A stretch of 57,238 nt of DNA from Candidatus Endobugula sertula (GTDB lineage: Bacteria; Pseudomonadota; Gammaproteobacteria; Pseudomonadales; Cellvibrionaceae): the NCBI GenBank assembly GCA_001723645.1, contig MDLC01000015.1, positions 1 through 57,238 of the forward strand, read 5' to 3'. The translations under genes were made by a program, and so were the position numbers. Positions 36,965 through 57,238 of the stretch are shown piece after piece. The notes beneath the pieces are model-generated. The model worked only from the letters and a program-made list of their open reading frames with translations, was not told the DNA's origin and searched no databases. How positions within the stretch are numbered: the first letter of the stretch is position 1; every line of letters starts with the position of its first letter.

Positions 36965-37145
36965 ACAGGAAAGTATCCCAAGAATGCCGCTGTCATAATG
37001 GCCTTGAACCGTGAAGTTCAAGTGGTGGTCTCTGGCAAGCATTAGGCTTTCCGTAGTACGGACATGCACACCAACAAGCACGAGAAACCTCCGGAAGTTG
37101 TAATATCGGCTCAAGGACGATGACTGGCAAACACCTCAGGACTCA
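36965..37145 (-). ncRNA. ssrS: 6S RNA
   Basis: The minus strand contains blocks matching remembered E. coli 6S RNA: CCTTGAGCCGATATT, GTTGGTGTGCATG, GGAAAGCCTAA and CTTGAAC..GGTTCAAGG. The termini are complementary. The conserved zapA-ssrS-ygfA synteny holds. Ends are approximate. Confidence 0.85.
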
Positions 37146-41580: not shown

Positions 41581-42474
41581 CTAAATTGATAGGCGATACC
41601 ATTGGGTATTTTTAATAGCCTTTAGATATCTCCTAGCTTTTTTGTGTTGTTCTAAAAACCTAGGACTTTGACTGGTTACTTCAAATCCAAATTGCTTTGG
41701 TAACTTTGTGTACATAGATTTGGGCAGCAATCCGTAGATTTTCTTAATTTTTCGCCCTGTGTCAAAAGTATGATAATAGATGGTCGAAATACCCAGCTTG
41801 TTGCGGATAAATTGAATAGCCGCTAGTAGTGAGAGTTCCGCCCATAATCTCTTATAAGGCTCTAATATGACTTCAGCATAGTGTTTAAATTCATTATACT
41901 CACAGTCAATACCATGGATAATATCGCCGGGTTTTACTGTGTTTTTCCCAGCATAGCACCTTGTAACACGCTGCATATCCCAGGTAACTCTACGGATCCA
42001 ATCATTTTGTACCTCTTCAATTAATGCTTCTCCTGTCGTAGGATCAAAATCTATTCTTACCCAAGATAATGTTTTGCGGTTATTTTGCCTAATAGGATGC
42101 CCTCTATATTCAAATGGGCCATAGCTATCATAAGGTTTTAGTAAACTATGGTAGTGTTGGTTATGTTCATTGCCAAAATTGATTTGTAAAACCAGATTTT
42201 GCTGATTTCTAGGTGTTTGATCATAACCTCTTTCGCTGTCACCCCACCGATCAAGTGTTAATGTAAAAGTTAATACATCATTGGGCCAGTAAGATTTAAG
42301 ATTATCTATTGGTAAATAACCATTGCCGCATCGTTTGATAATGTTTTTAACAATCGGTTTTGCGGCAAATAACTCTAAATAATAGCGATCCTTAAAATAA
42401 TGAAAGCCCCTTCTTTCATTACCTAAGCAATACAGTACATCCTCTAAATATTTACTCGTTAAAATCTCTACCAT
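41581..42474 (-). CDS. Uncharacterised protein, third gene of the rtcB-prfH operon (paralog B)
   Basis: 297 aa. The start overlaps the prfH stop by 23 nt. Shares long identical blocks with 39441..40397 but lacks about 25 aa near the N-terminus. Confidence 0.75.
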
Positions 42475-43135
42475 AAAAAGTACGTATAGGTTTACCCCTT
42501 TGCACTTCGTAGTGCTGTGACCATCGTGAACGTTCGAGTGATTTATTTTCTAAATCGTTTTGATTTGCCAGCAATAGTTGCAAACGCTCTAATGCGATTT
42601 GCTTATTTCTATGCTGGGAACGGTCTGATTCAACACGCACTTTTAAACCAGTTGTGCGATGAGTGATACGAACCGCACTATTGGTCTTATTGACATGTTG
42701 ACCACCTGGCCCTTTTGACCGCATAGTCTCCATATCGACTTCCTTCACTAATTCGTTGAACGTCTTCATACTATTACTAGGCATTGATAATGTCGCAATA
42801 CCCACGAACCAGTTGATGCGTTTATGCTTAGGTCGATAAGGGCTTTCACCTTGCCATTTAATAGTTCCTTGCCATTTATGAGCAAACCCATCAACCCCTT
42901 TGCCTTCTAAGCGGATCAATATCGACAAAAATGCATCAGGCTCAATCAATGTCTGATTTCGCAATAACTTATCAAATGCTAAGCTCTCAACGATTTCAGC
43001 AGACAGATTTTCTCTGTATGCTTCATCCAATAGAACTCGACTGAGCTGAGCAATAACCCAGCCGCATTCTTTAGGGCCTTGACCAGCCGTCAGTTGTAGC
43101 CATACAACTGACGATTTTTTATGCTTTGTTTCCAT
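42452..43135 (-). CDS. prfH: Peptide chain release factor H (PrfH)
   Basis: 227 aa. The RF-like GGQ domain reads [20 protein letters not shown] without a codon-recognition domain of RF1/2 size. Lies 2 nt downstream of rtcB, as in known rtcB2-prfH pairs. Confidence 0.88.
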
Positions 43136-43137
43136 AT

Positions 43138-44373
43138 TTATGTTCTCCGTGTTTTATAGGTGAGTAATGGTTTAAAGGTTGCAACGATATCAACCATACC
43201 GGCTTCCGCTAAGTCGCTCACCACCTGACTAATATTTTTGTAGGCTTGTGGGGCCTCTTCATAAAGTAGATCTCTTTGCTTACAAATAACACGGCTACCT
43301 AGTGAAGTTTTCTCTAAGTCTTTTACCTTAAAACGCTTTTCTAAGCGGCCTCGAGCATCACTGCGTTTCCATTTTCGGCCTGCACCATGTGCTAGAGAAA
43401 AACCTCCAAGAGCCAATGCACTTAGCTCATTAACTCTAGGTTTAACAAGATAACTTAAACTACCTCGAGATCCAGGTATCATTACTAAGCCCTTATTCGT
43501 TGGGCTTGCACCTTTACGGTGTATCCAATAACGTCTTTCTGAATCGATGTCTGACTTTGCGGCTGATTTTGCAGAAAGCCCCATTAGCTCAGTCTCAACA
43601 CTTGATAAAGCTTCAACCATATTGTGGGTGACATCGAACAAATAGCGTTGCTTTGTCTTTAACTGCTGACAAAAACGTTCTGCAATAAGTTCTCGATTTG
43701 CTTCAGCCCAACGGATAGCGTAATTGTGACGTTTTTGATACTGTTCATACTGATATTCATCTTGTATGGTTTCTAATGATTTTGAACCTAGGTTATCAAC
43801 ATGATCGCGAAGTATTTTTTGCCCTAAACCTCTAGAGCCGCTATGTACGAGTAAAAACACATGCTTTTTATCAATACCTAATCCATCAAATACATCACTA
43901 TCAATAATCTCATGAATCTGTTGCAATTCAGCAAAGTGATTATCGCCACCTATTGTTCCTAACTTGTGATGCTCTGTTAATGAAAAATCACCTTCAATTA
44001 TTAGACTGCGATCGCCCAACCATTCTTCCCTATTGCCATTCCATAGTTCATCAAGCCCAACAAGTTGTTTTTCCCATTTGTCTAATTTGACCTTTCTGGT
44101 CGGAATATCTAATTGCCATAAACCCATGCCACAACCAATATCACTACCCACCATATGGGGGTAGATACAGTTTTCCGTTACAAAAGCGGCGCCAATGGGT
44201 TGCCCTTTTCCTGGGTGTAGATCTGGCATACCAATACCGATACGCATACCCGGTAATTCCATTGTTTTTTTCAGCTGCGTAATGGCAGCGTCTTCTAACC
44301 AATTTTTGTCAGAGCTAATAATGCTCGTTCGACGATCCTCAGCTGTTTCGATATTTTTAAATAAAGTACTCAT
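43138..44373 (-). CDS. rtcB: RNA 3'-phosphate/5'-OH ligase RtcB (PrfH-associated type)
   Basis: [35 protein letters not shown] and HGAGR motifs. 411 aa. Confidence 0.93.
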
Positions 44374-44486
44374 ACAATTTACTTGTTCTATTTTTTCCTA
44401 TATGTCATCTTTCGGCGCAAGTTCGCCCCTCCTGAATCATACATTCAAGTTAAAAAATGACAGGCAATAAGTCTTAACAGTTAATA

Positions 44487-44612
44487 GCGGTGCAAGGATG
44501 CGCCGCCACTGGTCGACAGACCAGTGCGAACCCCTTAAAAACAAGGAGCTTCACATAGCTTCGCCAGTTTTTAAGGGGTGACAGTTAAATAGGTTAGGAT
44601 GACCTATTTAAC
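44487..44612 (-). ncRNA. Candidate structured RNA / leader: four consecutive hairpins upstream of rtcB-prfH
   Basis: Four stems on the plus strand: gcggtgca/tgcgccgc (44487-44506, 7 of 8 bp), cactggtc/gaccagtg (44507-44526), ccccttaaaaac/gtttttaagggg (44531-44578, 12 bp) and gttaaataggt/acctatttaac (44584-44612, 11 bp). No ORF and no U-tract. Strand is not determined from sequence. Confidence 0.35.
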
Positions 44613-44725
44613 TATATAATTAGTAACTGCAATAAATTTTAAATATGCAAAGCTAAACTAAAGCTTCAATAAAGAGCCAGAGATTAAAAATGTTTGTCTG
44701 AATGGATATAGCAGTAAGAAAAAAT

Positions 44726-48494: not shown

Positions 48495-48541
48495 TGGTAA
48501 CAAACCAAGGGGATTCGAACCCCAGACTTTCGTCTTACCCA
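48495..48541 (-). other. tRNA 3'-half-like fragment (T-arm plus ..ACCA), no 5' half
   Basis: The minus strand reads TGGGTAAGACGAAAGTCTGGGGTTCGAATCCCCTTGGTTTGTTACCA. It directly abuts the CCA end of tRNA-Met. No complementary 5' acceptor strand was found. Confidence 0.45.
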
Positions 48542-48618
48542 TGGTGTTTTTGGCAGGATTCGAACCTGCTACCCATCGATTATGAATCGATTGCTCTACC
48601 CGTATGAGCTACAAAAAC
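48542..48618 (-). tRNA. tRNA with CAT anticodon (Met, or Ile if lysidine-modified), CCA encoded
   Basis: Hand fold: GTTTTTG TA GCTC ATACGGGTA GAGC A ATCGA TTCATAA TCGAT GGGTA GCAGG TTCGAAT CCTGC CAAAAAC A CCA. Confidence 0.85.
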
Positions 48619-50290: not shown

Positions 50291-51487
50291 CTAGCCTTTT
50301 ACGTTGACGATTTGACGAAGCGTATGAACAACGTCAACAAGATCAGTTTGGTTATCCATAACATCATCAATTGGCTTATACGCCATGGGAATCTCATCGA
50401 TTACACCTTTGTCTTTACGGCATTCAATCCCCTCTGTTGCAGATACAAGATCACTTACAGAATAGGTTTTTGCAGCCGCAGTTCGACTTAGGCGACGTCC
50501 AGCGCCGTGAGAGCAAGAACAGAACGATTCTGATTCACCTTTACCACGAACAATAAAACTTTTATCGCCCATAGACCCAGGAATAATACCCAAATCATCT
50601 TTTCTTGCGCGGATAGCGCCTTTACGTGTAACCCATACGTTTTTACCAAAATGGTTTTCCTTTTCCACATAGTTATGATGACAATTGATGGCTTCTTGAG
50701 TGACCGCAAACGCTGGAAGATGTTTACGTAGCTCCATCATCACTGCATTCATCATATGTGTACGATTCAATGCAGCATAATCTTGCCCCCAAGATACTGC
50801 TTCGATGTAATCATCGTAATATTCTGATCCTTCAGATAGATAAGCCAAATCTTTATCGGGCAAATGGATCATCCATTTTTCCATTTCACGTTTCGCGATC
50901 TCGATAAAATGCATTCCAATTTTATTACCGATACCACGGCTTCCTGAATGCAGCATAATCCATACGTCTTGATTTTCATCCAAACACAACTCGATAAAGT
51001 GATTCCCTGAACCTAGCGTACCTAACTGCTTTGCAAAGGCATCATACTTAATACGTTTACTTATTTGAGGATGCTTCTCGAAGATAGTACTTAAACGCAT
51101 TGAAATATCATGGCCACCTGCAATTTTAGGGTCACGATGTTTTCCGCCTGCCCCCAAAGGCACAACAGATTCAATACGACTGCGAATAGCTTTCAAATTA
51201 TCAGGCAGATCTTTTGCCTTTAGCGATAGACGCACGGCATTCATACCACAACCAATATCCACGCCTACTGCAGCAGGGATAATCGCTTTATCGGTCGCGA
51301 TTACTGAACCCACAGTCGCTCCTTTACCCAAATGAACATCTGGCATTGCTGCTACATGTTTATAGACAAAGGGTAAATTCGCTACTCGGCTTAATTGTGC
51401 CTGTGTGTTGTAATCAATATCATCTGTCCAGATTTTTACAGGCACACGCTGATCTTTATGCGTTGCCAATACTTTTTTAATGGTCAT
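50291..51487 (-). CDS. rtcB: RNA ligase RtcB embedded in the tRNA array
   Basis: MPDVHLGKG, GVDIGCGM, GSGNHFIELC, HSGSRGIGN, HNY and HGAGR motifs. 398 aa. Lies 30 nt downstream of an oversized tRNA-like gene and 40 nt upstream of tRNA-Thr. Confidence 0.95.
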   Translation of the reverse strand: MTIKKVLATHKDQRVPVKIWTDDIDYNTQAQLSRVANLPFVYKHVAAMPDVHLGKGATVGSVIATDKAIIPAAVGVDIGCGMNAVRLSLKAKDLPDNLKAIRSRIESVVPLGAGGKHRDPKIAGGHDISMRLSTIFEKHPQISKRIKYDAFAKQLGTLGSGNHFIELCLDENQDVWIMLHSGSRGIGNKIGMHFIEIAKREMEKWMIHLPDKDLAYLSEGSEYYDDYIEAVSWGQDYAALNRTHMMNAVMMELRKHLPAFAVTQEAINCHHNYVEKENHFGKNVWVTRKGAIRARKDDLGIIPGSMGDKSFIVRGKGESESFCSCSHGAGRRLSRTAAAKTYSVSDLVSATEGIECRKDKGVIDEIPMAYKPIDDVMDNQTDLVDVVHTLRQIVNVKG

Positions 51488-51517
51488 AATTGCCTCCTTT
51501 AGTTATTTTATAATGAC

Positions 51518-51658
51518 TGGTTGGAGGTATAGGAATAACCTAAGCGCGTCCTGCGCTTAGCCTTTCAGATGCAAAGCAGTTCAAAATGCTCCCGGCATTT
51601 TGTCGAACCCATCTCGCCGGGGCAAAAACCCGGTGCTCAGCCACTAAGCCAACCTCCA
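51518..51658 (-). tRNA. Oversized (141 nt) tRNA-like gene with a 74-nt T-loop. The 7-nt anticodon loop reads TTTTTGC (UUU). CCA encoded.
   Basis: Hand fold: TGGAGGT TG GCT TAGTGGCTG AGC A CCGGG TTTTTGC CCCGG CGAG ATGGG [TTCGA CAAAATGC-CGGGA-GCATTTTG AACTGCTTTGCATCTGAAAGG CTAAGCGC-AGGAC-GCGCTTAG GTTATT] CCTAT ACCTCCA A CCA. Acceptor pairs 7/7 and T-stem 5/5. Confidence 0.6.
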
Positions 51659-51668
51659 GTTAAGTAAT

Positions 51669-51818
51669 TGGAGCGATGTATGGGAATCGAACCCATTTCC
51701 TCTGCTTGGACTGCTTTGCAGGAGCAAAAGCAGGACATCATGTAGTGGTGGTTGCGAAGCAATTGTGTATAGGGATATACACAACAACGCAGGTACCTCA
51801 CCATTCGGTTAACATCGC
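51669..51818 (-). tRNA. Oversized (150 nt) tRNA-like gene with an ~80-90 nt insertion in the anticodon arm. Anticodon undetermined. CCA encoded.
   Basis: 5' part: GCGATGT TA ACC GAATGGTGA GGT A CCTGC. 3' part: GCAGA GGAA ATGGG TTCGATT CCCAT ACATCGC T CCA. Acceptor pairs 7/7. The insert holds the hairpins TTGTGTATA-TCCC-TATACACAA and CTGCTTTTGC-TCCT-GCAAAGCAG. Confidence 0.55.
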
Positions 51819-51824
51819 ATAAAT

Positions 51825-51902
51825 TGGTCTGGGTGGTAGGGTTTGAACCTACGACCTTTGGGTTCCAAACCCAACACGCTAACCAAACTGCGCTACACCC
51901 AG
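51825..51902 (-). tRNA. tRNA-Pro (TGG), CCA encoded
   Basis: Hand fold: CTGGGTG TA GCGC AGTTTGGTTA GCGT G TTGGG TTTGGAA CCCAA AGGTC GTAGG TTCAAAC CCTAC CACCCAG A CCA. Confidence 0.9.
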
Positions 51903-51910
51903 AATAAATT

Positions 51911-52052
51911 TGGCGGTTCATACCACTTCCCATAAATAGAGAGGGAACCGGTGATCTCTCGGCTTATTCACATGAATGTAATGTATGCCGATTTTGCAGG
52001 AGCAAAAATCGGTGACAACCGAGCGCATTAAACCTGACTATGCTAATGAACC
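51911..52052 (-). tRNA. Oversized (142 nt) tRNA-Asp(GTC)-like gene with a 49-nt insertion after the anticodon loop and an expanded T-loop. CCA encoded.
   Basis: Hand fold: GGTTCAT TA GCAT AGTCAGGTTTA ATGC G CTCGG TTGTCAC [CGATTTTTGC-TCCT-GCAAAATCGG CATACATTACATTCATGTGAATAAG] CCGAG AGATC ACCGG [TTCCC TCTCTATTTAT GGGAA] GTGGT ATGAACC G CCA. Acceptor pairs 7/7. Confidence 0.6.
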
Positions 52053-52057
52053 TTAAT

Positions 52058-52133
52058 TGGTGGAGACCGTGGGAATCGAACCCACCACACAGTGCTTGCA
52101 AAGCATCGTCGCCCCCTTGATACATGGGCCCCC
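52058..52133 (-). tRNA. tRNA-Ala (TGC) with G3:U70, a poorly paired D-arm, CCA encoded
   Basis: Hand fold: GGGGGCC CA TGTATCAAGGGGGCGAC GATGC TTTGCAA GCACT GTGTG GTGGG TTCGATT CCCAC GGTCTCC A CCA. The G3-T70 wobble is present. No convincing D-stem. Confidence 0.7.
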
Positions 52134-52138
52134 AATTT

Positions 52139-52293
52139 TGGAGTGCGAGGCTGGGTGAAAGAAGTGTTGTTAGCAAAGCACTGCTTTGTACTTCTTGAAC
52201 GCCCAAAACTTATAATTTTTGGCCGGCCCGCTTGCGGCAAACCAGCGTATACGGAGGTTGCAGCTCCGCGCATCGTCTCTCTGCCACTCGCAC
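52139..52293 (-). tRNA. Oversized (155 nt) tRNA-Cys(GCA)-like gene with an 87-nt T-loop. U73, CCA encoded.
   Basis: Hand fold: GTGCGAG TG GCAG AGAGACG ATGC G CGGAG CTGCAAC CTCCG TATAC GCTGG [87 nt, including AAGAAGT..ACTTCTT and AAAGC-AGT-GCTTT hairpins] CCAGC CTCGCAC T CCA. Acceptor, anticodon and T stems all pair perfectly. Confidence 0.6.
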
Positions 52294-52310
52294 AAAATAG
52301 TTATTCAGAT

Positions 52311-52384
52311 TGGCAACAGCGTCAGGATTCGAACCTGGAATACCGGAGTCAAAGTCCAGTGTGTTACCGTTACACCACGCTGCT
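52311..52384 (-). tRNA. tRNA-Gln (TTG), G73, CCA encoded
   Basis: Hand fold: AGCAGCG TG GTGT AACGGTA ACAC A CTGGA CTTTGAC TCCGG TATT CCAGG TTCGAAT CCTGA CGCTGTT G CCA. One T-stem mismatch. Confidence 0.8.
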
Positions 52385-52392
52385 ATATTTTT

Positions 52393-52481
52393 TGGTCGTG
52401 AGGAGCGGGTTTGAACTCTCGCAGCACTCTTGTTACTGTGCGGATTAGCAATCCGCTGCCTTACCACTCGGCCACATTTCC
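52393..52481 (-). tRNA. tRNA-Ser(GCT)-like, probably defective (acceptor and T stems do not pair)
   Basis: Type II D-arm GCCGAGTGGTAAGGC, anticodon arm GCGGA TTGCTAA TCCGC, and a long variable arm. The 5' strand GGAAATG pairs at only 3 of 7 positions with CCTCACG, and the T-stem GAGAG/CCGCT is poor. Confidence 0.5.
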
Positions 52482-52487
52482 AATAAT

Positions 52488-52629
52488 TGGTTGCGGTGGC
52501 TGGAATAACCAAAGTACTTTCTGTACTTTGCTCTGCGAGTGCTTCGCTGCTCAAAATGCTCCAGGCATTTTGTCGAACCAACAAGTTCGGGCATATGAAA
52601 CCCGCGAGTAGCCATAGCTCAACACCGCT
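52488..52629 (-). tRNA. Oversized (142 nt) initiator-like tRNA (CAT) with the same 74-nt T-loop architecture as 51518..51658. CCA encoded.
   Basis: Hand fold: AGCGGTG TT GAGC TATGGCT A CTC G CGGGT TTCATAT GCCCG AACTT GTTGG [TTCGA CAAAATGC-CTGGA-GCATTTTG AGCAGCGAAGCACTCGCAGAG CAAAGTAC-AGAAA-GTACTTTG GTTATT] CCAGC CACCGCA A CCA. There is a 1:72 A-A mismatch, and the 3' end CCGCAACCA resembles remembered E. coli tRNA-fMet. Confidence 0.6.
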
Positions 52630-52640
52630 TCAAATAGTAG

Positions 52641-52715
52641 TAGGCCAAGGCGGATTCGAACCGCTCCTTATCCCGCTTATGAGGCGGGTGCATTCACCGA
52701 TTATGCTATTGGCCT
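52641..52715 (-). tRNA. tRNA with CAT anticodon (Met/Ile2 type), no CCA encoded
   Basis: Hand fold: AGGCCAA TA GCAT AATCGGTGA ATGC A CCCGC CTCATAA GCGGG ATAAGG AGCGG TTCGAAT CCGCC TTGGCCT A. Followed by CTA. Confidence 0.75.
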
Positions 52716-52725
52716 AATTTAAAAT

Positions 52726-52809
52726 TGGTGTAGGCAGATGGAGTTGAACCACCAAAGCTTTCGCGACCGGGTTACAACCGGCTAGAGTCACCACGTCTCT
52801 TCTGTGTAC
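52726..52809 (-). tRNA. tRNA-Tyr (GTA), type II, with two central acceptor mismatches. CCA encoded.
   Basis: Hand fold: GTACACA GA AGAG ACGTGGTGA CTCT A GCCGG TTGTAAC CCGGT CGCGAAAGCTTT GGTGG TTCAACT CCATC TGCCTAC A CCA. An alternative 5' strand GCAGGTA (to 52813) pairs 6/7 but leaves a 6-nt connector. Confidence 0.65.
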
Positions 52810-52818
52810 CTGCATAAT

Positions 52819-52895
52819 TGGCTCCGGCAGTTGGGATCGAACCAACGAACTCCTGATTAACAGTCAGGCGCATTACCACTCTGCTTCACACCGGA
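52819..52895 (-). tRNA. tRNA-Asn (GTT), CCA encoded
   Basis: Hand fold: TCCGGTG TGAAGCAGAGTGGTAATGC G CCTGA CTGTTAA TCAGG AGTTC GTTGG TTCGATC CCAAC TGCCGGA G CCA. The D-stem is shifted (GCA/TGC). Confidence 0.8.
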
Positions 52896-52902
52896 ATAAA
52901 AT

Positions 52903-52979
52903 TGGTACAGTGAGCTGGACTCGAACCAGCACTCTCCTGATCTTCAATCAAGCGCTCTACCAATTGGAGCTATCACTGC
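52903..52979 (-). tRNA. tRNA-Phe (GAA), CCA encoded
   Basis: Hand fold: GCAGTGA TA GCTC CAATTGGTA GAGC G CTTGA TTGAAGA TCAGG AGAGT GCTGG TTCGAGT CCAGC TCACTGT A CCA. Confidence 0.9.
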
Positions 52980-52987
52980 CGTTTTAT

Positions 52988-53173
52988 TTGGCACGCGGTG
53001 AAAGAAAAGTATCAAACCTCATCGAGGAGTGGAACGACAGCAATAAAATTGATCCTGAACGGCTAGAAGACCAGCTCACACCAGAGCGTTATAGGGCGCT
53101 ATTTGATACCCTCGTAGATTGGAATGACTATCTTGACAACCATGCACCGGATATCAAGGAGTTGTTGCTATGA
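52988..53173 (+). CDS. Small hypothetical protein upstream of mobC (start uncertain, TTG)
   Basis: The part of track ORF 52910..53173 that lies outside tRNA-Phe. Its stop overlaps the mobC-like start (ATGA). Confidence 0.3.
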   Translation: MARGERKVSNLIEEWNDSNKIDPERLEDQLTPERYRALFDTLVDWNDYLDNHAPDIKELLL

Positions 53174-53598
53174 ACAATTCTGCGAACCTCAAACAAGCGT
53201 TTGAAACCTCTAGCGCTCAAAATACCATCAAACCTAAAAAGCAGTATGCACGAACATTTTCTATGCGTCTTACGGATGGTGAACGTGATTTCTTAGACCA
53301 GCATAGCGGCTCTTTGTCATGGTCTGGCTATATCCGCAAGCGTGTCTTTGGTGAAAAAGCCGAAAAACGTCGCCCTGTAAAACGAGCTGTGCCAGATACG
53401 GCGCTACTAGCTCAAGTTCTCGCAGAGCTAGGCGCTTCCCGTTTATCTGCCAATATCAACCAACTGGCAAAACACGCCAATATGGGAACGCTGGACGTTT
53501 CGCCTGAAACTGAGCGCGAGATTGAAAGCGCCTGCCGTGAAATCCATACCCTGCGTATGCTGTTGATTGCTGCCTTGGGTGTTCAGCCAGAGGATTAG
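53170..53598 (+). CDS. MobC-like relaxosome accessory protein
   Basis: RHH-like N-terminal part (FSMRLTDGERDFL) and the ELGASRLSANINQLAKHANMG motif typical of MobC-family mobilisation proteins. Immediately upstream of the relaxase. Confidence 0.8.
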   Translation: MNNSANLKQAFETSSAQNTIKPKKQYARTFSMRLTDGERDFLDQHSGSLSWSGYIRKRVFGEKAEKRRPVKRAVPDTALLAQVLAELGASRLSANINQLAKHANMGTLDVSPETEREIESACREIHTLRMLLIAALGVQPED

Positions 53599-53600
53599 AG

Positions 53601-54734
53601 ATGATATTGCACGGCAATCAACGCGGCGGCGCTAAAGATATGGCGCTTCATCTTATGAAAGATGAAAACGAACATATTGAGGTGTACGAGATCAGAGGCT
53701 TTGCTTCTGAAAACCTCATAGGGGCTTTTAACGAAGCCTATGCCATTAGCCGCGCCACACGTTGTAAGCAATTCCTATACTCTCTAAGCTTAAACCCGCC
53801 ACCGGATGAGCAGGTATCTACTGAAAGCTTTAAAAAAGCCATTAATCAGGCTGAACAACGGCTAGGGCTGGATAATCAGCCCCGCGTTATTGTTTTCCAT
53901 GAAAAGCAGGGGCGTAGGCATTGCCATGTTGTCTGGTCACGAATTGATAGCTCTGAATTAAAGGCCATACGGCTTCCTTTTACCAAGTTGAAATTACGGG
54001 AGTTATCCCGCGAATTATTCCTAGAGCATGGCTGGGCTATGCCCGAAGGTTTGCGGGATTCCCACAACCGTGACCCGCGTAATTTTACCTTGGCAGAATG
54101 GCAGCAAGCCAAACGCACAGGCAAGAACCCCAAGCAGGTTAAGGCCGTATTCCAAGAATGCTGGAATATTAGCGATACACAAAGCGCTTTTGCCAATGCC
54201 CTAAAAGAGCATGGTTATATCTTGGCGCGTGGTGATCGGCGCGGCTTTGTTGCGGTGGATTTTAAAGGTGAAGCTTTCGCCGTGTCTAAATGGGTTGGCA
54301 TTAAAGCAAAAGACGTTAAAGCCAAACTCAACGAAGCGGATAAGTTGCTTCCATTTGCAGACGCTAAAGCACACATGGCAAATGCTATGGCGGCAACATT
54401 GCAAAAGGCTCAAGAGCAGCAAAATACCGCTATTCGTGAGCGCCAAAATCAGCTTGAGGCAAGACTTGAAGCCATGGCCATGCAACATAAGCAAGAACGC
54501 CAAAATCTGGAACAAACACAAGATATACGCCGTATTGAAGAAACCAAAACCCGCCAAGCCAGATACAGCAAAGGCTTACGAGGCCTATGGCAACGCCTGG
54601 ATAAGTTCAGGGAACAGGGGCAAAAGCATATCACTCAAGACATACAACAATACCGCGAAATCCAACAACATAAGCGGGATACGTTCAGCATGACAGACCC
54701 ACAAAAACATAGGGGTAGAGGGCTTGAGCGTTAA
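53601..54734 (+). CDS. Relaxase / mobilisation nuclease (MobA/VirD2-type)
   Basis: N-terminal relaxase domain with HCHVVWSRI (His-triad region), then a long Q/E-rich coiled-coil tail. 377 aa. Confidence 0.88.
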   Translation: MILHGNQRGGAKDMALHLMKDENEHIEVYEIRGFASENLIGAFNEAYAISRATRCKQFLYSLSLNPPPDEQVSTESFKKAINQAEQRLGLDNQPRVIVFHEKQGRRHCHVVWSRIDSSELKAIRLPFTKLKLRELSRELFLEHGWAMPEGLRDSHNRDPRNFTLAEWQQAKRTGKNPKQVKAVFQECWNISDTQSAFANALKEHGYILARGDRRGFVAVDFKGEAFAVSKWVGIKAKDVKAKLNEADKLLPFADAKAHMANAMAATLQKAQEQQNTAIRERQNQLEARLEAMAMQHKQERQNLEQTQDIRRIEETKTRQARYSKGLRGLWQRLDKFREQGQKHITQDIQQYREIQQHKRDTFSMTDPQKHRGRGLER

Positions 54735-54822
54735 TTAATTGGTTAAATTTGACTCAAACAGCAAAAAAGTTGTATGCTTAAACATATATGTGTTTATACG
54801 CTTATTTATAGAGGTAACTATC

Positions 54823-55059
54823 ATGACACGTTGGAGTCTTGTTGTTAATAACGAAACCGATCAAAGCTTACGTGCTTTTCTGGGTCAGAAAGGTGCGAAA
54901 AAAGGTGATTTATCCAAATTCGTAGAAGAAGCCGTACTGGATAAATTACTGGCTGAAACAGCAGAAATGATTAAAGAGCGTAATGCTGCCGATGATCAAA
55001 TGAATATTATGAGTACAGTAAATGAAGCATTAGAGGCTGTACGTGCGCATAGTTCTTGA
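54823..55059 (+). CDS. Ribbon-helix-helix antitoxin
   Basis: An RBS gaggt precedes ATG 54823. 78 aa with an MTRWSLVVNNETDQSLRAFL beta-strand start. Its end overlaps the PIN gene. Confidence 0.7.
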   Translation: MTRWSLVVNNETDQSLRAFLGQKGAKKGDLSKFVEEAVLDKLLAETAEMIKERNAADDQMNIMSTVNEALEAVRAHSS

Positions 55060-55459
55060 TACAGGCATTTTAGTTAGCGCATTAATCACCAAAGATACGC
55101 CGCCTGATTGGTTGTACCAATCATGGTGTAAACAAGCCTTTACGCTTGTCACCTCTGAAGAGCAACTGGAAGAAATAAAGCGTGTACTGTCTTATAAAAA
55201 GCTCGAACGTTTTATCAATCAGTCCGAAGCACAAATTCTGCTAGAAGCTCTCCACCGAAAAGCAGATATTGCAACAGACCTACCTTTTGTTGAACTATCA
55301 CCTGACCCTGATGATAACCGTATTATTGCCACGGCGCTGGCTGGGCAAGCGGATTATCTGGTATCAGGCGATAAGGCGGATTTATTGAGCCTTGGCATGG
55401 CTCATGATATTCCCATTCTTACTGCTCGGCAGATGGCAGAACGCTTGAAACTGGGTTAA
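55043..55459 (+). CDS. PIN-domain toxin
   Basis: IVLDTGILVSALI (the first acidic residue), D...D in DPDDNRIIATA and SGD. 138 aa, GTG start. Confidence 0.8.
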   Translation: MRIVLDTGILVSALITKDTPPDWLYQSWCKQAFTLVTSEEQLEEIKRVLSYKKLERFINQSEAQILLEALHRKADIATDLPFVELSPDPDDNRIIATALAGQADYLVSGDKADLLSLGMAHDIPILTARQMAERLKLG

Positions 55460-55475
55460 ATAACAAAGCCATTTA

Positions 55476-56027
55476 TCAATTGAAAAAGTCTCGAATGTCC
55501 ATAATTGCACCTTTCCCGTTAAGGTGCTGGCGCATTTGATTTAGCTTTTCATAAATTGTGACAGTATATATTCCGTTAAAGCTGCCATATATCTTATGGT
55601 CTTCCCCCGTTTCACAATATTTAGGGTTATCCAATGTGTGAAAAGTTCTACAGTGAAATGGCCTTACCTCATATATCGTACATTCGCCTTCATCACCAAG
55701 AAAAGGACAAGGGCTAGTATGTCCGGTAGAAGCAATTAATTGTCTGGGCTTTCTCTTTCGACGGGTCTCTTCCTCTATAAGTTTTGCTTCTAATTCAGTG
55801 ATCGTGACATCAATTTTGCAGCAGTGAGAACATCCTTTCGAGCAAACAGAGAAGGTTTTAACAAAGTCACCATAATCTTCTAAATATTTGTAAATATCTT
55901 TTAGCTTCAAAATAGCTCTTTTATTTTTAGATTGAAGTGTGCTCAGTAACTTCTTGCACTTAATAGCTAATTCATTAGGGATAGCAGGTAATACCGTTTC
56001 TTCACTTTTATCTTTAAACTTTATCAT
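55476..56027 (-). CDS. YkgJ-family cysteine-cluster (Zn/Fe-chelating) protein
   Basis: CSKGCSHCCK (CxxCxxCC) plus a second C-rich block CPFLGDEGECTIYEVRPFHCR. Confidence 0.8.
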   Translation of the reverse strand: MIKFKDKSEETVLPAIPNELAIKCKKLLSTLQSKNKRAILKLKDIYKYLEDYGDFVKTFSVCSKGCSHCCKIDVTITELEAKLIEEETRRKRKPRQLIASTGHTSPCPFLGDEGECTIYEVRPFHCRTFHTLDNPKYCETGEDHKIYGSFNGIYTVTIYEKLNQMRQHLNGKGAIMDIRDFFN

Positions 56028-56147
56028 TATACGACCTCTGATAACCTCTACGATTAAATCATGATGATATTGATGCCAAAAAAGTGGCTAGTTACACCTT
56101 AGCTGAGAGTAACAAAATAAGTGAACAAAGACGACGATAAGAGGAAC

Positions 56148-56336
56148 CTAAAATGAGGTATTAGGTACTTTTTTAATATAATCACGAACGGCGATGAGTA
56201 TAGGGCTTAGATCTTCGTCTTTGCTATGAATCATCTTCAAAACCGTATCCTCGCTATCGGCTAGATCACAAAGCATAGAGCCATACATTTTCATGTAGCT
56301 GCGGTATTTGCGTTTAAGCTGTGCTGGTGTTGTCAT
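56148..56336 (-). CDS. Small hypothetical protein downstream of the resolvase
   Basis: ORF from an internal ATG (MTTPAQLKRKY...). Overlaps the resolvase 3' end. Confidence 0.35.
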   Translation of the reverse strand: MTTPAQLKRKYRSYMKMYGSMLCDLADSEDTVLKMIHSKDEDLSPILIAVRDYIKKVPNTSF

Positions 56337-56925
56337 TGCTGGAAGTCCTTTTTTTCTGAGGGGTATATTCATTTAAGATGCGGCTGAGAGTGCGGGTAGA
56401 GATGCCAAATTCTTTGGCTATCTCTTTATGAGTGTATTGCTGTTGGGCTTTCATTTTGAGGAGTGCGCGGGTTTTACGCTGTGATAGTTTACGCCGCCGC
56501 CCAAGGTGTTTGCCGTTTTGTCGGGCGATTTCCAACCCTGCTTTGGTTCGCTCTGAAATAATATCGCGCTCAAGCTCTGCAAAGGCATTGCGGATGGTAT
56601 ACATGCACTTACCCATCGGGGTTGTTGTGTCGATAGCTTCCGTCAAACATTTAAACTCAAGGCCGCGTTGCTGAAATAAATCTAATACGTCTAGTGCGTT
56701 TCTAACCGAACGGAAGGCACGGTCAAATTTCCAAATCACCAGCACATCACCATACTGCATAGACGCAATAGCGCTGTCGAAGCCTGGGCGTGATTTAGCG
56801 ATAGCGGACACGCCCAAGTCTTCGAAGATATTATTCTGCTCACACCCTGCTAATATCAGGGCTTTGCGTTGTAGGTCTAAATTCTGTTCACTGGTGCTAA
56901 CCCGCGCATAACCAATCAAGGCCAT
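56314..56925 (-). CDS. Serine recombinase (resolvase/invertase family)
   Basis: MALIGYARVSTSEQNLDLQ (catalytic Ser), VWKFDRAFRS, and a C-terminal HTH HKEIAKEFGISTRTLSRIL. Confidence 0.92.
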   Translation of the reverse strand: MALIGYARVSTSEQNLDLQRKALILAGCEQNNIFEDLGVSAIAKSRPGFDSAIASMQYGDVLVIWKFDRAFRSVRNALDVLDLFQQRGLEFKCLTEAIDTTTPMGKCMYTIRNAFAELERDIISERTKAGLEIARQNGKHLGRRRKLSQRKTRALLKMKAQQQYTHKEIAKEFGISTRTLSRILNEYTPQKKRTSSNDNTSTA

Positions 56926-57238
56926 AAATCCTCCCATAAAATAATGTCTTCCCTATAACGGTAGACAAAACCGAACGTTTCTGTCTTATAGCCATAAGAT
57001 CACCCAGTCAATAAAAAAGAGAGAAAAAGGCGTTAAAAACGGGCGTAAACAGCCATTTTTTAAGCACAAAATAATCTTATGGAATTATGACGAAATCCTT
57101 CGATTGCGGCGGCTATTAATCTATTGATATTGCTTACTTTTTCTTGTTCTGTATGGGCAGATGCATATTCCACTCCAAGATGAACACCTTCTCCAATTGA
57201 AAATGATCACCCCCTGCGATTAAACGTGATCAGTCTCT

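What the first reader, a model, noticed from the sequence alone, without database searches (positions are those of the whole stretch)
51518..51658. tRNA-like gene whose T-loop is expanded to 74 nt by a three-hairpin module, with compensatory changes relative to a second copy
**Architecture.**
- The gene has a 7/7 acceptor stem, D-arm, anticodon arm, a 5/5 T-stem (ATGGG/CCTAT) and encoded CCA.
- Between the T-stem strands lie 74 nt: TTCGA + hairpin CAAAATGC-CGGGA-GCATTTTG + a 21-nt middle segment + hairpin CTAAGCGC-AGGAC-GCGCTTAG + GTTATT.
- Removing the module would leave a canonical T-loop, roughly TTCGA..TT.

**Comparison with 52488..52629.**
- That gene has exactly the same layout and the same 74-nt length.
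- Its T-stem is GTTGG/CCAGC.
- Its last hairpin is CAAAGTAC-AGAAA-GTACTTTG. Four of eight stem positions differ from copy 1, and all four differences are compensated.

**Interpretation.** This covariation argues for selection on the RNA structure rather than random decay. The module might be an intron-like element removed by cleavage and RtcB ligation, a protein-binding or decoy module, or part of a new class of tRNA-derived RNA.
Basis: partly seen in the sequence, partly recalled or inferred. Interest (0 to 1): 0.9.

Follow-up and report, generated by a model that had tools for sequence, protein, structure and literature searches.

The report
Mobile hairpin module splitting tRNA T-loops
Two ordinary tRNA genes (Lys and Met-type) in a spare tRNA gene cluster of a marine symbiont are each split in the T-loop by a 67-base, four-hairpin insert from an undescribed family of small, apparently mobile elements that land in tRNA loops; nothing found here shows that it is an intron spliced by the neighbouring RtcB ligase.

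Summary
51518-51658 and 52488-52629 (minus strand) are complete tRNA genes, Lys-UUU and a CAU type, each with exactly 67 extra bases between T-loop positions 58 and 59.

- **They are real tRNA genes.** Deleting the 67 bases restores tRNAs that ARAGORN detects. Intact orthologs sit at the same places in syntenic tRNA–RtcB clusters of related Cellvibrionaceae.
- **The insert is a family member.** It has four hairpins (P1, P2a, P2b, P3), all supported by covariation.
- **It recurs at other sites.** It is found in other tRNA genes at T-loops and anticodon loops, in both orientations. One antisense copy lies in the window's own tRNA-Gly.
- **It also occurs elsewhere.** It sits in leftover tRNA 3' fragments beside tRNA-Ser, Arg and Glu genes of marine Gamma- and Alphaproteobacteria, and occasionally outside any tRNA context.
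- **It appears mobile.** Near-identical genomes differ by filled versus empty sites, and there is no target duplication.

The best reading is a small mobile structured element acting at the DNA level, with the mobilising enzyme unknown. The RtcB link is not specific, and no ribozyme or bulge-helix-bulge signal exists. Splicing or an acquired protein-binding role (GGA loops like CsrA sites) is not excluded. No Rfam family matches.

The parts
51518..51658 (-). tRNA-Lys(UUU) gene interrupted in the T-loop (copy 1); lies 30 nt upstream of rtcB
   Evidence: Sequence. Removing 67 nt gives an ARAGORN tRNA-Lys call. It is 64/74 identical to intact orthologs L013 9896-9969 and L075 5894-5967, with compensatory changes at pairs 3:70 and 31:39.
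51603..51607 (-). UUCGA, T-loop positions 54-58, kept intact just 5' of the insert
   Evidence: Sequence. The same left flank is seen in nearly all family members.
51536..51602 (-). 67-nt inserted module of copy 1
   Evidence: Absent from orthologs L013, L075 and L076. Model R1 scores 95 bits. Its 3' part is present in L079.
51582..51602 (-). P1 hairpin CAAAAUGC-CGGGA-GCAUUUUG (GGA in the loop)
   Evidence: P1 covaries in the family: 4/8 pairs in A4 and 9/9 in A6.
51570..51578 (-). P2a mini-hairpin UGC-UUU-GCA
   Evidence: Family helix 2.
51561..51569 (-). P2b mini-hairpin UCU-GAA-AGG (GNA triloop)
   Evidence: Sequence. Family helix 3 has 4/4 pairs changed on both sides.
51540..51560 (-). P3 hairpin CUAAGCGC-AGGAC-GCGCUUAG (GGA in the loop), followed by GUUA, the end of the insert
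   Evidence: P3 has 8/8 and 7/7 pairs changed on both sides.
52488..52629 (-). tRNA(CAU) gene (Met, Ile2 or initiator type unresolved) interrupted in the T-loop (copy 2)
   Evidence: Sequence. Removing 67 nt gives an ARAGORN tRNA-Met call. It is 69/75 identical to intact orthologs L013 9125-9199 and L075 5072-5146.
52506..52572 (-). 67-nt inserted module of copy 2: P1 52552-52572, P2a 52540-52548, P2b 52531-52539, P3 52510-52530
   Evidence: R1 scores 94 bits. Hairpins. The P3 loop is AGAAA, so GGA is lost there.
51711..51786 (+). 76-nt module of the same family, antisense to its host tRNA-Gly(UCC) gene (51669-51818, minus strand), inserted after U33 of the anticodon loop
   Evidence: Model R2, which was not trained on it, scores 79 bits, E=3.8e-16, on the + strand. 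Removing it restores tRNA-Gly. Intact orthologs are L013 9814-9887 and L075 5812-5885.
50291..51487 (-). rtcB (RNA 3'-phosphate/5'-OH ligase). Context gene, not shown to act on the module
   Evidence: Pfam RtcB, 1.7e-129. Synteny is conserved in L013-L015, L075-L077 and L080.

Best explanation
Copies 1 and 2 are genuine tRNA genes, Lys-UUU and a CAU tRNA. They belong to an accessory, RtcB-linked tRNA array in the chromosome of Candidatus Endobugula sertula (Cellvibrionaceae).

**What is inserted.** Each gene has received a 67-nt insertion exactly between T-loop nucleotides A58 and N59. The insertions are independent. The insert belongs to a family of small (about 67-100 nt) structured elements with four hairpins:
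- P1 and P3 are terminal hairpins that look alike. In the gammaproteobacterial subfamily both carry GGA loops.
- P2a and P2b are mini-hairpins between them.

**What is shown.**
- Filled and empty orthologous sites exist.
- The same sites are hit recurrently by different module lineages.
- Both orientations occur.
- There is no target duplication.
- The hairpins covary.

**What is inferred.**
- The element moves at the DNA level, probably as a non-autonomous element mobilised in trans.
- It lands 3' of a short ...(G/C)A motif presented in 7-nt hairpin loops: TTCGA in T-loops, and TACGA, TTGGA or TTCCA in anticodon loops.
- It survives only where the target is dispensable. Such targets are redundant array tRNAs and leftover tRNA 3' fragments next to tRNA genes.
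- The hairpins are conserved because the element needs them to move, as the end hairpins of IS200/IS605-type single-strand elements are.
- The interrupted genes most likely no longer give working tRNAs and will decay, as copies shared between genomes appear to have done.
- RtcB is a neighbour because this array is part of an RNA-repair cluster, not because it splices the module.
For: **1. Orthology and clean insertion.**
- Syntenic arrays in L013, L075 and L076 (RtcB 91-92% amino-acid identity) carry uninterrupted Lys and CAU tRNAs at the same positions.
- Deleting exactly 67 nt restores detectable tRNAs.
- The closer relative L079 (RtcB 98%) shares the copy-1 insert.

**2. Presence/absence polymorphism elsewhere.**
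- tRNA-Phe is filled in L013, L075 and L076 but intact in the window.
- tRNA-Arg(ACG) is filled in L013 and L076 but intact in the window.
- tRNA-Leu(UAG) is filled in L014 and empty in L080. The alignable flanks of these two are near-identical, about 98% by eye, and the junction shares only a single A.

**3. Both orientations.**
- Window tRNA-Gly carries an antisense copy: R2, + strand, E=3.8e-16.
- tRNA-Pro in L075 and L076 carries antisense copies.
- In L012 one module is nested antisense inside another.

**4. The same site is hit by different lineages.** The tRNA-Lys T-loop is filled in the window and in L080 by different modules. The module closest to copy 1 sits in tRNA-His of L076.

**5. 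Wide distribution without a link to RtcB.**
- 12 genome loci in Cellvibrionaceae, Sediminihaliea, Dasania, Aliiglaciecola, Rickettsiales and Alphaproteobacteria MAGs (metagenome-assembled genomes).
- About 13 metagenome copies. These include L065 and L039, where the flanks show no T-arm-like sequence.
- L015 has the RtcB array and no module.

**6. Structure.** 94-96% of cells are paired, and 16/21 and 23/25 pairs change on both sides.

**7. Decay of hosts whose insertions are shared between genomes** (by my reading of the sequences).
- L076 tRNA-His, tRNA-Arg and tRNA-Pro have mismatched stems.
- tRNA-Phe in L075 and L076 has a second insertion in the D-loop.

**8. No known RNA family, ribozyme or intron model matches**.
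Against: - No transposase or recombinase is consistently adjacent, and none could be tied to the element. The mechanism is inferred from anatomy only.
- P1 begins 0-1 nt from the left junction. This is unlike IS608-type ends, from what I recall of them.
- Copy number per genome looks low, which is unlike typical MITEs.
- All of roughly 20 T-loop insertions are in the sense orientation, although TTCGAA reads the same on both strands. That could mean selection at the RNA level, through tolerance, processing or function.
- The insertion point 58/59 is, to my knowledge, the one place where the T-loop motif tolerates extra nucleotides.
- The copy-1, copy-2 and L014-Leu hosts are fully intact. Relative to orthologs they carry compensatory stem changes, as expected if they are still under selection. 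The changes could, however, predate the insertion.
- Orthologous tRNA-Phe modules show a G-C to G.U to A-U path in P3. This hints at structural constraint after insertion.
- L014 and L080 also differ inside the tRNA itself. Exchange of cassettes between arrays could therefore mimic transposition.
Confidence: 0.6

Rival explanations
1. Intron-like element. The module is transcribed within the pre-tRNA. An unknown endonuclease, or self-cleavage, cuts it out at GA|C and NA|N, leaving 2',3'-cyclic phosphate and 5'-OH ends. The adjacent RtcB then joins the exons to give a normal tRNA.
For: - rtcB starts 30 nt downstream of copy 1. The array also contains a cREC_REC-like small ORF (a Pfam domain named for cyclic-phosphate processing) and a CCA-adding/repair enzyme.
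- Removing 67 nt leaves a perfect T-loop, UUCGAUU.
- The host tRNAs of copies 1 and 2 and of L014-Leu are intact, with compensatory changes relative to orthologs.
- Both junctions follow an A, and all T-loop copies are in the sense orientation.
Against: - No ribozyme or group I model matches at E<=10.
- No bulge-helix-bulge can form, because P1 abuts the junction.
- No splicing endonuclease domain was found in the 30 ORFs scanned.
- Antisense copies exist in the same arrays.
- The RtcB array exists without modules in L015, and many modules lie in loci where I saw no RtcB.
- Hosts whose insertions are shared between genomes are decayed.
Confidence: 0.12
2. Acquired functional RNA. Whatever its origin, the sense-oriented T-loop module is kept because the tRNA body acts as a stable, processed scaffold. 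The scaffold displays two GGA-loop hairpins that bind a protein dimer, as units of CsrB/RsmZ-type sponges do for CsrA/RsmA, or that decoy a tRNA-directed nuclease.
For: - In the gammaproteobacterial subfamily, GGA lies in the P1 loop in 22/23 copies and in the P3 loop in about 21/23. The two motifs are 41-52 nt apart.
- 8/23 copies match the CsrA SELEX consensus RUACARGGAUGU with at most 2 mismatches, against 1.4% of shuffles. One match is perfect. The consensus string is quoted in the literature (e.g. PMC4347634).
- UUCGA (positions 54-58) is preserved, so the tRNA elbow could still form.
- Tandem units lie after tRNA genes between terminators in L004, L026 and L012.
Against: - The alphaproteobacterial and other 'long' modules lack GGA loops.
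- Copy 2 has lost GGA in P3.
- Antisense copies would display UCC loops instead.
- No CsrB or Rsm Rfam model matches.
- Scaffold tRNAs whose insertions are shared between genomes are decayed.
- No promoter-like site precedes the free-standing units.
- CsrA binding is untested.
Confidence: 0.15
3. No dedicated mobility. The module spreads only by homologous or illegitimate recombination and gene conversion between the nearly universal T-arm sequences (GGTTCGA...ATCC) of tRNA genes and of integrase-made tRNA 3' fragments. It starts from an ancestral small RNA gene or attachment-site arm.
For: - In L001-L012 and L026 the module sits in partial tRNA copies. These repeat the 3' end of the adjacent tRNA plus its terminator, often in tandem.
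- The window also holds a Ser/Met chimeric tRNA made by a T-loop-to-T-loop deletion.
- L014 and L080 differ within the tRNA as well as by the insert.
Against: - Insertions in the anticodon loops of Arg, Gly and Pro, in both orientations, share almost no flanking homology with T-arms.
- Some copies lie where the flanks show no T-arm-like sequence.
- Modules are nested within modules.
Confidence: 0.1

Closest known systems
Archaeal non-canonical tRNA introns (bulge-helix-bulge introns at T-loop and other positions, cut by EndA and joined by RtcB)
   Same: Short inserts (tens of nt) at several tRNA positions, including the T-loop around 58-60. Related inserts turn up at different positions of different tRNAs. 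An RtcB ligase is in the picture.
   Different: Bacterial host. No bulge-helix-bulge can be drawn and no EndA-type domain was found. Copies also occur antisense and outside tRNAs. The module has a conserved internal four-hairpin fold, which BHB introns do not need.
IS200/IS605-type single-strand elements and their miniature derivatives (PATEs), and REP elements
   Same: Two similar hairpins near both ends in the same orientation. Insertion 3' of a short specific sequence without target duplication. Clean empty sites. Small non-coding copies that would have to be mobilised in trans.
   Different: P1 starts 0-1 nt from the junction and P3 ends 3-4 nt from the other. IS608, as I recall, has about 19 and 10 nt. 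No Y1 transposase was linked. Two extra internal mini-hairpins are conserved. Copy number appears low. The target is presented in tRNA loops.
Group I introns in bacterial tRNA anticodon loops
   Same: They interrupt bacterial tRNA genes at precise loop positions and show presence/absence polymorphism.
   Different: The module is far too small (67 nt, against 200 nt or more). No catalytic core was detected. It uses T-loop sites and antisense orientations.
[quoted passage not shown] 2021, PMC8421152)
   Same: A long same-strand array of redundant tRNA genes with RNA-repair genes, including rtcB, beside it. Some array members are pseudogenes.
   Different: My term search of that paper found no hairpin inserts in tRNA loops. 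The array here also carries HNH, a Band-7 protein, cca and a PrfH-RtcB pair.
CsrB/RsmY/RsmZ sponge RNAs
   Same: Repeated hairpins with GGA in the loop, spaced for a CsrA dimer. P3 is close to the SELEX consensus. Tandem units occur after tRNA genes.
   Different: No Rfam match. The GGA loops are confined to one subfamily. The element sits inside tRNA genes and in both orientations.

Membership tests
Bona fide tRNA gene (host of the insert) | Cloverleaf with a 7-bp acceptor stem, D, anticodon and T arms, and a canonical T-loop | tested here: met
   After removing 67 nt, ARAGORN calls tRNA-Lys(ttt) and tRNA-Met(cat). As they stand, the genes are missed.
Bona fide tRNA gene (host of the insert) | Orthology to uninterrupted tRNA genes at the same position of syntenic arrays | tested here: met
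   64/74 and 69/75 identity to the L013 and L075 genes, in the same gene order next to rtcB.
Archaeal-type BHB tRNA intron | Bulge-helix-bulge motif spanning both splice sites | tested here: not met
   By inspection, P1 begins 0-1 nt after the 5' junction. No 4-bp helix can form between the 5' end of the insert and the 3' exon.
Archaeal-type BHB tRNA intron | Splicing endonuclease (EndA family) encoded in the genome | tested here: inconclusive
   None was found among 30 window ORFs scanned with Pfam. The rest of the genome was not available.
Any RNA-level intron | Always in the sense orientation of the host transcript | tested here: not met
   There are antisense copies in window tRNA-Gly and in tRNA-Pro of L075 and L076.
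Group I intron / small self-cleaving ribozymes | Match to the catalytic-core covariance models | tested here: not met
   Rfam 15 gave no such hit on 51450-53050 at E<=10, and none at the gathering threshold in the window or in L001-L012.
IS200/IS605-type miniature element | Similar subterminal hairpins at both ends, in the same orientation | tested here: met
   P1 and P3 share the pattern CAAA..C / 5-nt purine-rich loop in most copies.
IS200/IS605-type miniature element | Insertion 3' of a short specific sequence, no target duplication, and clean empty sites | tested here: met
   Filled and empty pairs were compared for Lys, CAU, Gly, Phe, Arg and Leu. The junction is ambiguous by one A only.
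IS200/IS605-type miniature element | Cognate Y1 (HUH) transposase present in the genome, and a guide/cleavage-site geometry like IS608 | not tested
   No transposase lies next to the copies. Whole genomes could not be scanned. The hairpin-to-junction distances (0-1 and 3-4 nt) differ from what I recall for IS608.
Classical MITE | Terminal inverted repeats and a target-site duplication | tested here: not met
   The ends are direct, hairpin-forming repeats, and no duplication is seen.
CsrB/Rsm-type CsrA sponge | Several GGA motifs in hairpin loops | tested here: met
   Copy 1 has two and copy 2 has one. In the subfamily the counts are 22/23 and about 21/23.
CsrB/Rsm-type CsrA sponge | Match to the CsrB, CsrC, RsmX, RsmY or RsmZ models, and demonstrated CsrA binding | tested here: not met
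   No Rfam hit. Binding cannot be tested with these tools.
Bacterial Y RNA (YrlA) with a tRNA-like domain | Match to RF02553 and a neighbouring Ro (rsr) gene | tested here: not met
   The best YrlA hit scores 16 bits against a gathering score of 69, and it lies on canonical tRNAs. No Ro/TROVE domain is in the cluster.
Integrase attachment-site remnant | Partial tRNA 3' copy repeating the end of an adjacent intact tRNA | tested here: not met
   Copies 1 and 2 are complete genes inside the array. The feature is met only for the free-standing units in L001-L012 and L026.

The most novel reading that the evidence does not exclude
Bacteria possess protein-dependent mini-introns in tRNA T-loops and anticodon loops. 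The four-hairpin module is recognised and cut out of the pre-tRNA by an unidentified endonuclease, and the array-encoded RtcB religates the exons. This would give bacterial RtcB a native splicing substrate. It would also explain why every T-loop copy is in the sense orientation and sits at the one structurally permissive T-loop position.
Probability: 0.1. Interest if true: 0.9.

Novelty: new variant of a known kind. Interest (0 to 1): 0.62.

Why it matters
- **A specific kind of small genetic parasite.** If the main reading holds, this is a 67-100-nt structured element that lands in tRNA loops. It persists in redundant tRNA arrays and in leftover tRNA fragments.
- **Annotation.** It explains 'missing' or 'tRNA-like' genes that ARAGORN and the Rfam tRNA model failed to call here, in these marine Proteobacteria. 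It also shows that accessory tRNA arrays turn over quickly.
- **A handle on mechanism.** It offers a way to find a mobilising enzyme that reads hairpin loops.
- **The minority readings.** They would bear on what bacterial RtcB is for, or would reveal tRNA-scaffolded protein sponges.
- **Testable.** Aurantivibrio infirmus, named as the source of the L014 copy and apparently a described species, carries one in tRNA-Leu. A near-identical genome with the empty site exists.

Tried and rejected
- **Phage origin.** The window instead encodes PolA, cytochrome oxidase, Pst and 6S RNA. A 98-aa ORF matches Ca. Endobugula sertula at 100% on a 57,238-bp contig.
- **No matches in mobile-element collections.** Nothing turned up in the phage, plasmid or viral collections.
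- **Known RNA families.** No ribozyme, group I intron, tmRNA, permuted tmRNA, Y RNA or Csr/Rsm model matches.
- **tmRNA-like reading.** The GGNUUCGAC motif suggested tmRNA. There is no 3' T-arm, no alanine-type acceptor and no ARAGORN tmRNA call.
- **Bulge-helix-bulge.** It cannot be drawn.
- **IS91-type target.** Placing the insertion after GTTC or CTTG needs extra mismatches on the right flank in tRNA-Gly and in copy 2.
- **Integrase next to the free-standing units.** None was found.
- **Promoters in front of the units.** None was found.
- **Choosing the functional strand by thermodynamics.** Both strands fold about equally well. The wobble versus A.C count is only 13 against 6.
- **GacA box upstream of the L003 and L006 units.** The match is poor.
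- **Pseudoknot between the P1 loop (GGA) and UCC of the T-arm.** Covariation cannot be tested because both sides are invariant. Copies with no T-arm-like flanks lack the UCC partner.
- **The 98-aa ORF after rtcB.** Only 7 close homologs were found, with a weak cREC_REC hit. I did not predict its structure.
Full report
**Where this is.** The window is bacterial chromosome, not phage. It encodes PolA, cytochrome c oxidase, the Pst transporter and a 6S RNA. A small ORF is 100% identical to a protein of Candidatus Endobugula sertula on a contig of exactly 57,238 bp.

From about 42 kb to 53 kb the minus strand carries an RNA-repair cluster:
- a PrfH + RtcB pair;
- a metallophosphoesterase;
- the CCA-adding/repair enzyme;
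- a Band-7 protein;
- an HNH protein;
- a 98-aa cREC_REC-like ORF;
- a second RtcB (50291-51487);
- about 18 tRNA genes on the same strand.

ARAGORN of the tRNA genes. The other slots hold tRNA-shaped genes with extra sequence, and two of these are the finding.

**The observation.** On the minus strand, 51658-51518 reads:
- acceptor UGGAGGU;
- D-arm;
- anticodon arm CCGGG-UUUUUGC-CCCGG;
- CGAG;
- T-stem AUGGG;
- UUCGA;
- 67 nt;
- UU;
- CCUAU;
- ACCUCCA-A-CCA.

The gene at 52629-52488 has the same plan with anticodon CAU. The 67 nt form four hairpins:
- P1, 8 bp, loop CNGGA;
- P2a and P2b, two 3-bp mini-hairpins;
- P3, 8 bp;
- a 3' tail GUUA.

P3 differs at three stem positions, not four, and all three are compensated. 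The 'middle segment' is two hairpins.

**They are real tRNA genes with an insertion.**
- Removing exactly 67 nt makes ARAGORN call tRNA-Lys(UUU) and tRNA-Met(CAU).
- The RtcB protein has close homologs in other Cellvibrionaceae.
- Their loci show the same order: tRNA array, rtcB, tRNAs, small ORF, HNH, tRNA, Band-7.
- In L013, L075 and L076 the tRNA-Lys next to rtcB is uninterrupted. In L013 and L075 the CAU tRNA is uninterrupted too. Identity to the window genes minus the insert is 64/74 and 69/75.
- rtcB DNA is about 83% identical between these genomes.
- A closer relative, L079 (RtcB 98%), shares the copy-1 insert. The insert is therefore real and postdates the split from the 91-92% relatives.

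**The insert is one of a family.** An exact-pattern scan built on P1 found 12 loci in reference genomes. A looser scan found about 13 true copies in metagenomes. I built two covariance models:
- R1 from five 'short' copies, which include copies 1 and 2;
- R2 from eight copies of a second P1 subtype, none of them from the window.

Together they recover about 40 copies. Pair counts on the model-fitted alignments were as follows.

| Alignment | Cells paired | In shuffles | Partners slid | Pairs changed on both sides |
|---|---|---|---|---|
| A4 (R1) | 94.4% | 75.2% | 35-44% | 16/21 |
| A6 (R2) | 95.6% | 68.7% | 35-47% | 23/25 |

- These alignments are fitted to the model, which favours the structure.
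- The P1 sequence in A4 is biased by my search pattern.
- P3, P2a and P2b carry no such bias. P1 also covaries in A6.
- No Rfam family matches any copy.

**Evidence that it moves, at the DNA level.** Different genomes have different array tRNAs filled.

| Host tRNA | Site | Orientation | Filled in | Intact or empty in |
|---|---|---|---|---|
| Lys(UUU) | T-loop | sense | window, L079 | L013, L075, L076 |
| Lys(UUU), a different module lineage | T-loop | sense | L080 | L013, L075, L076 |
| CAU | T-loop | sense | window | L013, L075 |
| Phe | T-loop | sense | L013, L075, L076 | window |
| His | T-loop | sense | L076 | window, L079 |
| Leu(UAG) | T-loop | sense | L014 | L080, L013 |
| Arg(ACG) | anticodon loop, after CUACGA | sense | L013, L076 | window |
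| Pro(UGG) | anticodon loop | antisense | L075, L076; a remnant in L013 | window |
| Gly(UCC) | anticodon loop, after U33 | antisense | window | L013, L075 |

- The tRNA-Gly copy was found by R2 on the + strand at 51711-51786, 79 bits, E=3.8e-16. Removing it restores tRNA-Gly.
- L014 and L080 have near-identical alignable flanks, about 98% by eye. They differ by a 73-nt filled versus empty site in which only a single A is ambiguous.
- Read in the module's own orientation, the left flank is always ...(G/C)A. It is TTCGA, TACGA, TTGGA, TTCCA or TTAGA in tRNA-type 7-nt loops. It is GCCGA, CACCA, CAGGA or TCTGA in the copies where the flanks show no T-arm-like sequence, or which are nested in another module.
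- No target duplication is seen.
- P1 and P3 resemble each other and point the same way.

This anatomy recalls miniature IS200/IS605-type single-strand elements. The distances from hairpin to junction are much shorter than I recall for IS608, and no transposase could be linked. The mobilising enzyme is unknown.

**The free-standing copies.** In L001-L012 and L026 the module lies just downstream of an intact tRNA-Ser, Arg or Glu gene, inside a partial tRNA copy. Reading along that partial copy:
- it begins at the T-stem 5' strand;
- it has a degenerate T-arm-like hairpin (GGG-AUGAGAA-CCC);
- GGUUCGA and the module follow;
- it ends with AAUCC plus the 3' end of the neighbouring tRNA and its terminator.

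It is often tandemly repeated: L004 x2, L026 x3, L009 x2, L001 x2. I read these as dispensable T-loops, either integrase scars or partial duplications. An element that targets T-loops can survive there, just as it can in redundant array tRNAs. A composite mobile unit is not excluded.

**Why not an intron spliced by RtcB.**
- The tRNA array-rtcB synteny exists without any module in L015.
- Most family members are in loci where I saw no rtcB.
- Antisense copies exist in the same arrays.
- No ribozyme or group I model matches.
- P1 abuts the junction, so a bulge-helix-bulge cannot form.
- No splicing endonuclease domain was found in the 30 ORFs scanned.
- Interrupted genes shared by several genomes show decay, by my reading. 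L013 tRNA-Phe has lost C56. tRNA-Phe in L075 and L076 has a second insertion. L076 tRNA-Arg, Pro and His have mismatched stems.

**What keeps the RNA-level readings alive.**
- All of roughly 20 T-loop copies are in the sense orientation, although TTCGAA is a palindrome.
- The site 58/59 leaves the five T-loop-motif nucleotides UUCGA intact. To my knowledge it is where T-loops tolerate extra nucleotides.
- Copies 1 and 2 and L014-Leu have fully paired stems. Copy 1 and L014-Leu also differ from orthologs by compensatory stem changes.
- In the gammaproteobacterial subfamily both terminal loops carry GGA, in 22/23 and about 21/23 copies, 41-52 nt apart.
- P3 approaches the CsrA SELEX consensus RUACARGGAUGU. 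8/23 copies are within two mismatches, against 1.4% of shuffles. The consensus string appears in the literature.
- The 'long' alphaproteobacterial copies lack GGA, so this cannot be the family's universal role.

**Verdict.**
- The structural-selection inference is right.
- The 'tRNA-like gene' is a real tRNA gene hit by a small structured element that appears mobile.
- The RtcB-intron mechanism is unsupported but not excluded, at about 0.1.
- I found no description of this element in Rfam or in the papers searched.
- I class it as a new variant of a known kind: a small non-autonomous insertion element, here with tRNA-loop targeting and a conserved four-hairpin fold.

Noticed in passing
window 51911-52052 (-): tRNA-Asp(GUC) gene with a roughly 49-nt insert after position 38. 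Its hairpin CCGAUUUUUGC-UCCU-GCAAAAUCGG is a P1-like hairpin in antisense (R2 partial hit at 51989-52011 +, E=0.018). The gene also has an abnormal 24-nt T-loop. The same 'type B' element sits in the D-loops of tRNA-Met (L077 2775-2900), tRNA-Leu(UAA) (L075 5240-5380) and tRNA-Phe (L076).
   Followed up: partly
window 52139-52293 (-): tRNA-Cys(GCA) gene with a roughly 80-nt T-loop insert of a different kind: no GGA loops, and not hit by R1 or R2. L075 5574-5648 is the intact ortholog.
   Followed up: partly
window 52406-52481 (-): Chimeric pseudo-tRNA. The 5' two-thirds is tRNA-Ser(GCU), fused in the T-arm to the 3' end of a tRNA-Met (...CCUCACGACCA). The three tRNA-Leu genes that lie between these two in L013 are missing, so this is a T-loop-to-T-loop deletion. 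Rfam tRNA scores only 30.5 bits.
   Followed up: partly
window 42452-44373 (-): PrfH (TIGR03072) next to an RtcB of the 'release_rtcB' type. This is a second RtcB paralog in the same cluster, distinct from the one inside the tRNA array.
   Followed up: partly
window 36971-37145 (-): 6S RNA, Rfam 87 bits.
   Followed up: no
window 48500-48545 (-): Orphan tRNA 3' fragment (T-arm plus ...UUACCA) immediately after tRNA-Met 48542-48618.
   Followed up: no
window 53170-56937: MobC/relaxase, an RHH-PIN toxin-antitoxin pair and a resolvase abut the 5' end of the tRNA array. The array lacks the Glu and Trp genes that begin it in L013, so a mobilisable element may have truncated it.
   Followed up: no
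window 44480-44615 (+): Intergenic run of hairpins with AGGA or AGGAU loops (GCGGUGCA-AGGA-UGCGCCGC; AGUUAAAUAGGUU-AGGAU-GACCUAUUUAACU) between rtcB and a small ORF. This may be another hairpin element.
   Followed up: no
L013 8100-8330: Two roughly 100-nt repeats upstream of the array. Each has a UGGA-loop hairpin and a P1-like hairpin, UCRAAAAUGC-AGGA-GCAAYUUUUYGA.
   Followed up: no
L012 1-1400 (Aliiglaciecola sp.): At least six modules are interleaved with tRNA-Glu and tRNA-Ala genes. One is nested antisense inside P1 of another (1203-1289 within 1181-1340). One is inserted in the loop of a degenerate T-arm (1093-1177).
   Followed up: partly
L075 10635-12416 (-): A 593-aa reverse transcriptase (RVT_1) lies next to the Band-7 gene of the syntenic cluster.
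   Followed up: no
L077 1927-2250: A tRNA-shaped gene (acceptor GGGCGUG/CACGUCC-ACCA) has both a T-loop module and a roughly 200-nt insertion in its 5' half that overlaps a called 85-aa ORF.
   Followed up: no
window 51617-51633 (-): The anticodon loop of copy 1 is UUUUUGC (U32, G37, C38) where all intact orthologs have CUUUUAA. The anticodon and U33 are kept.
   Followed up: partly
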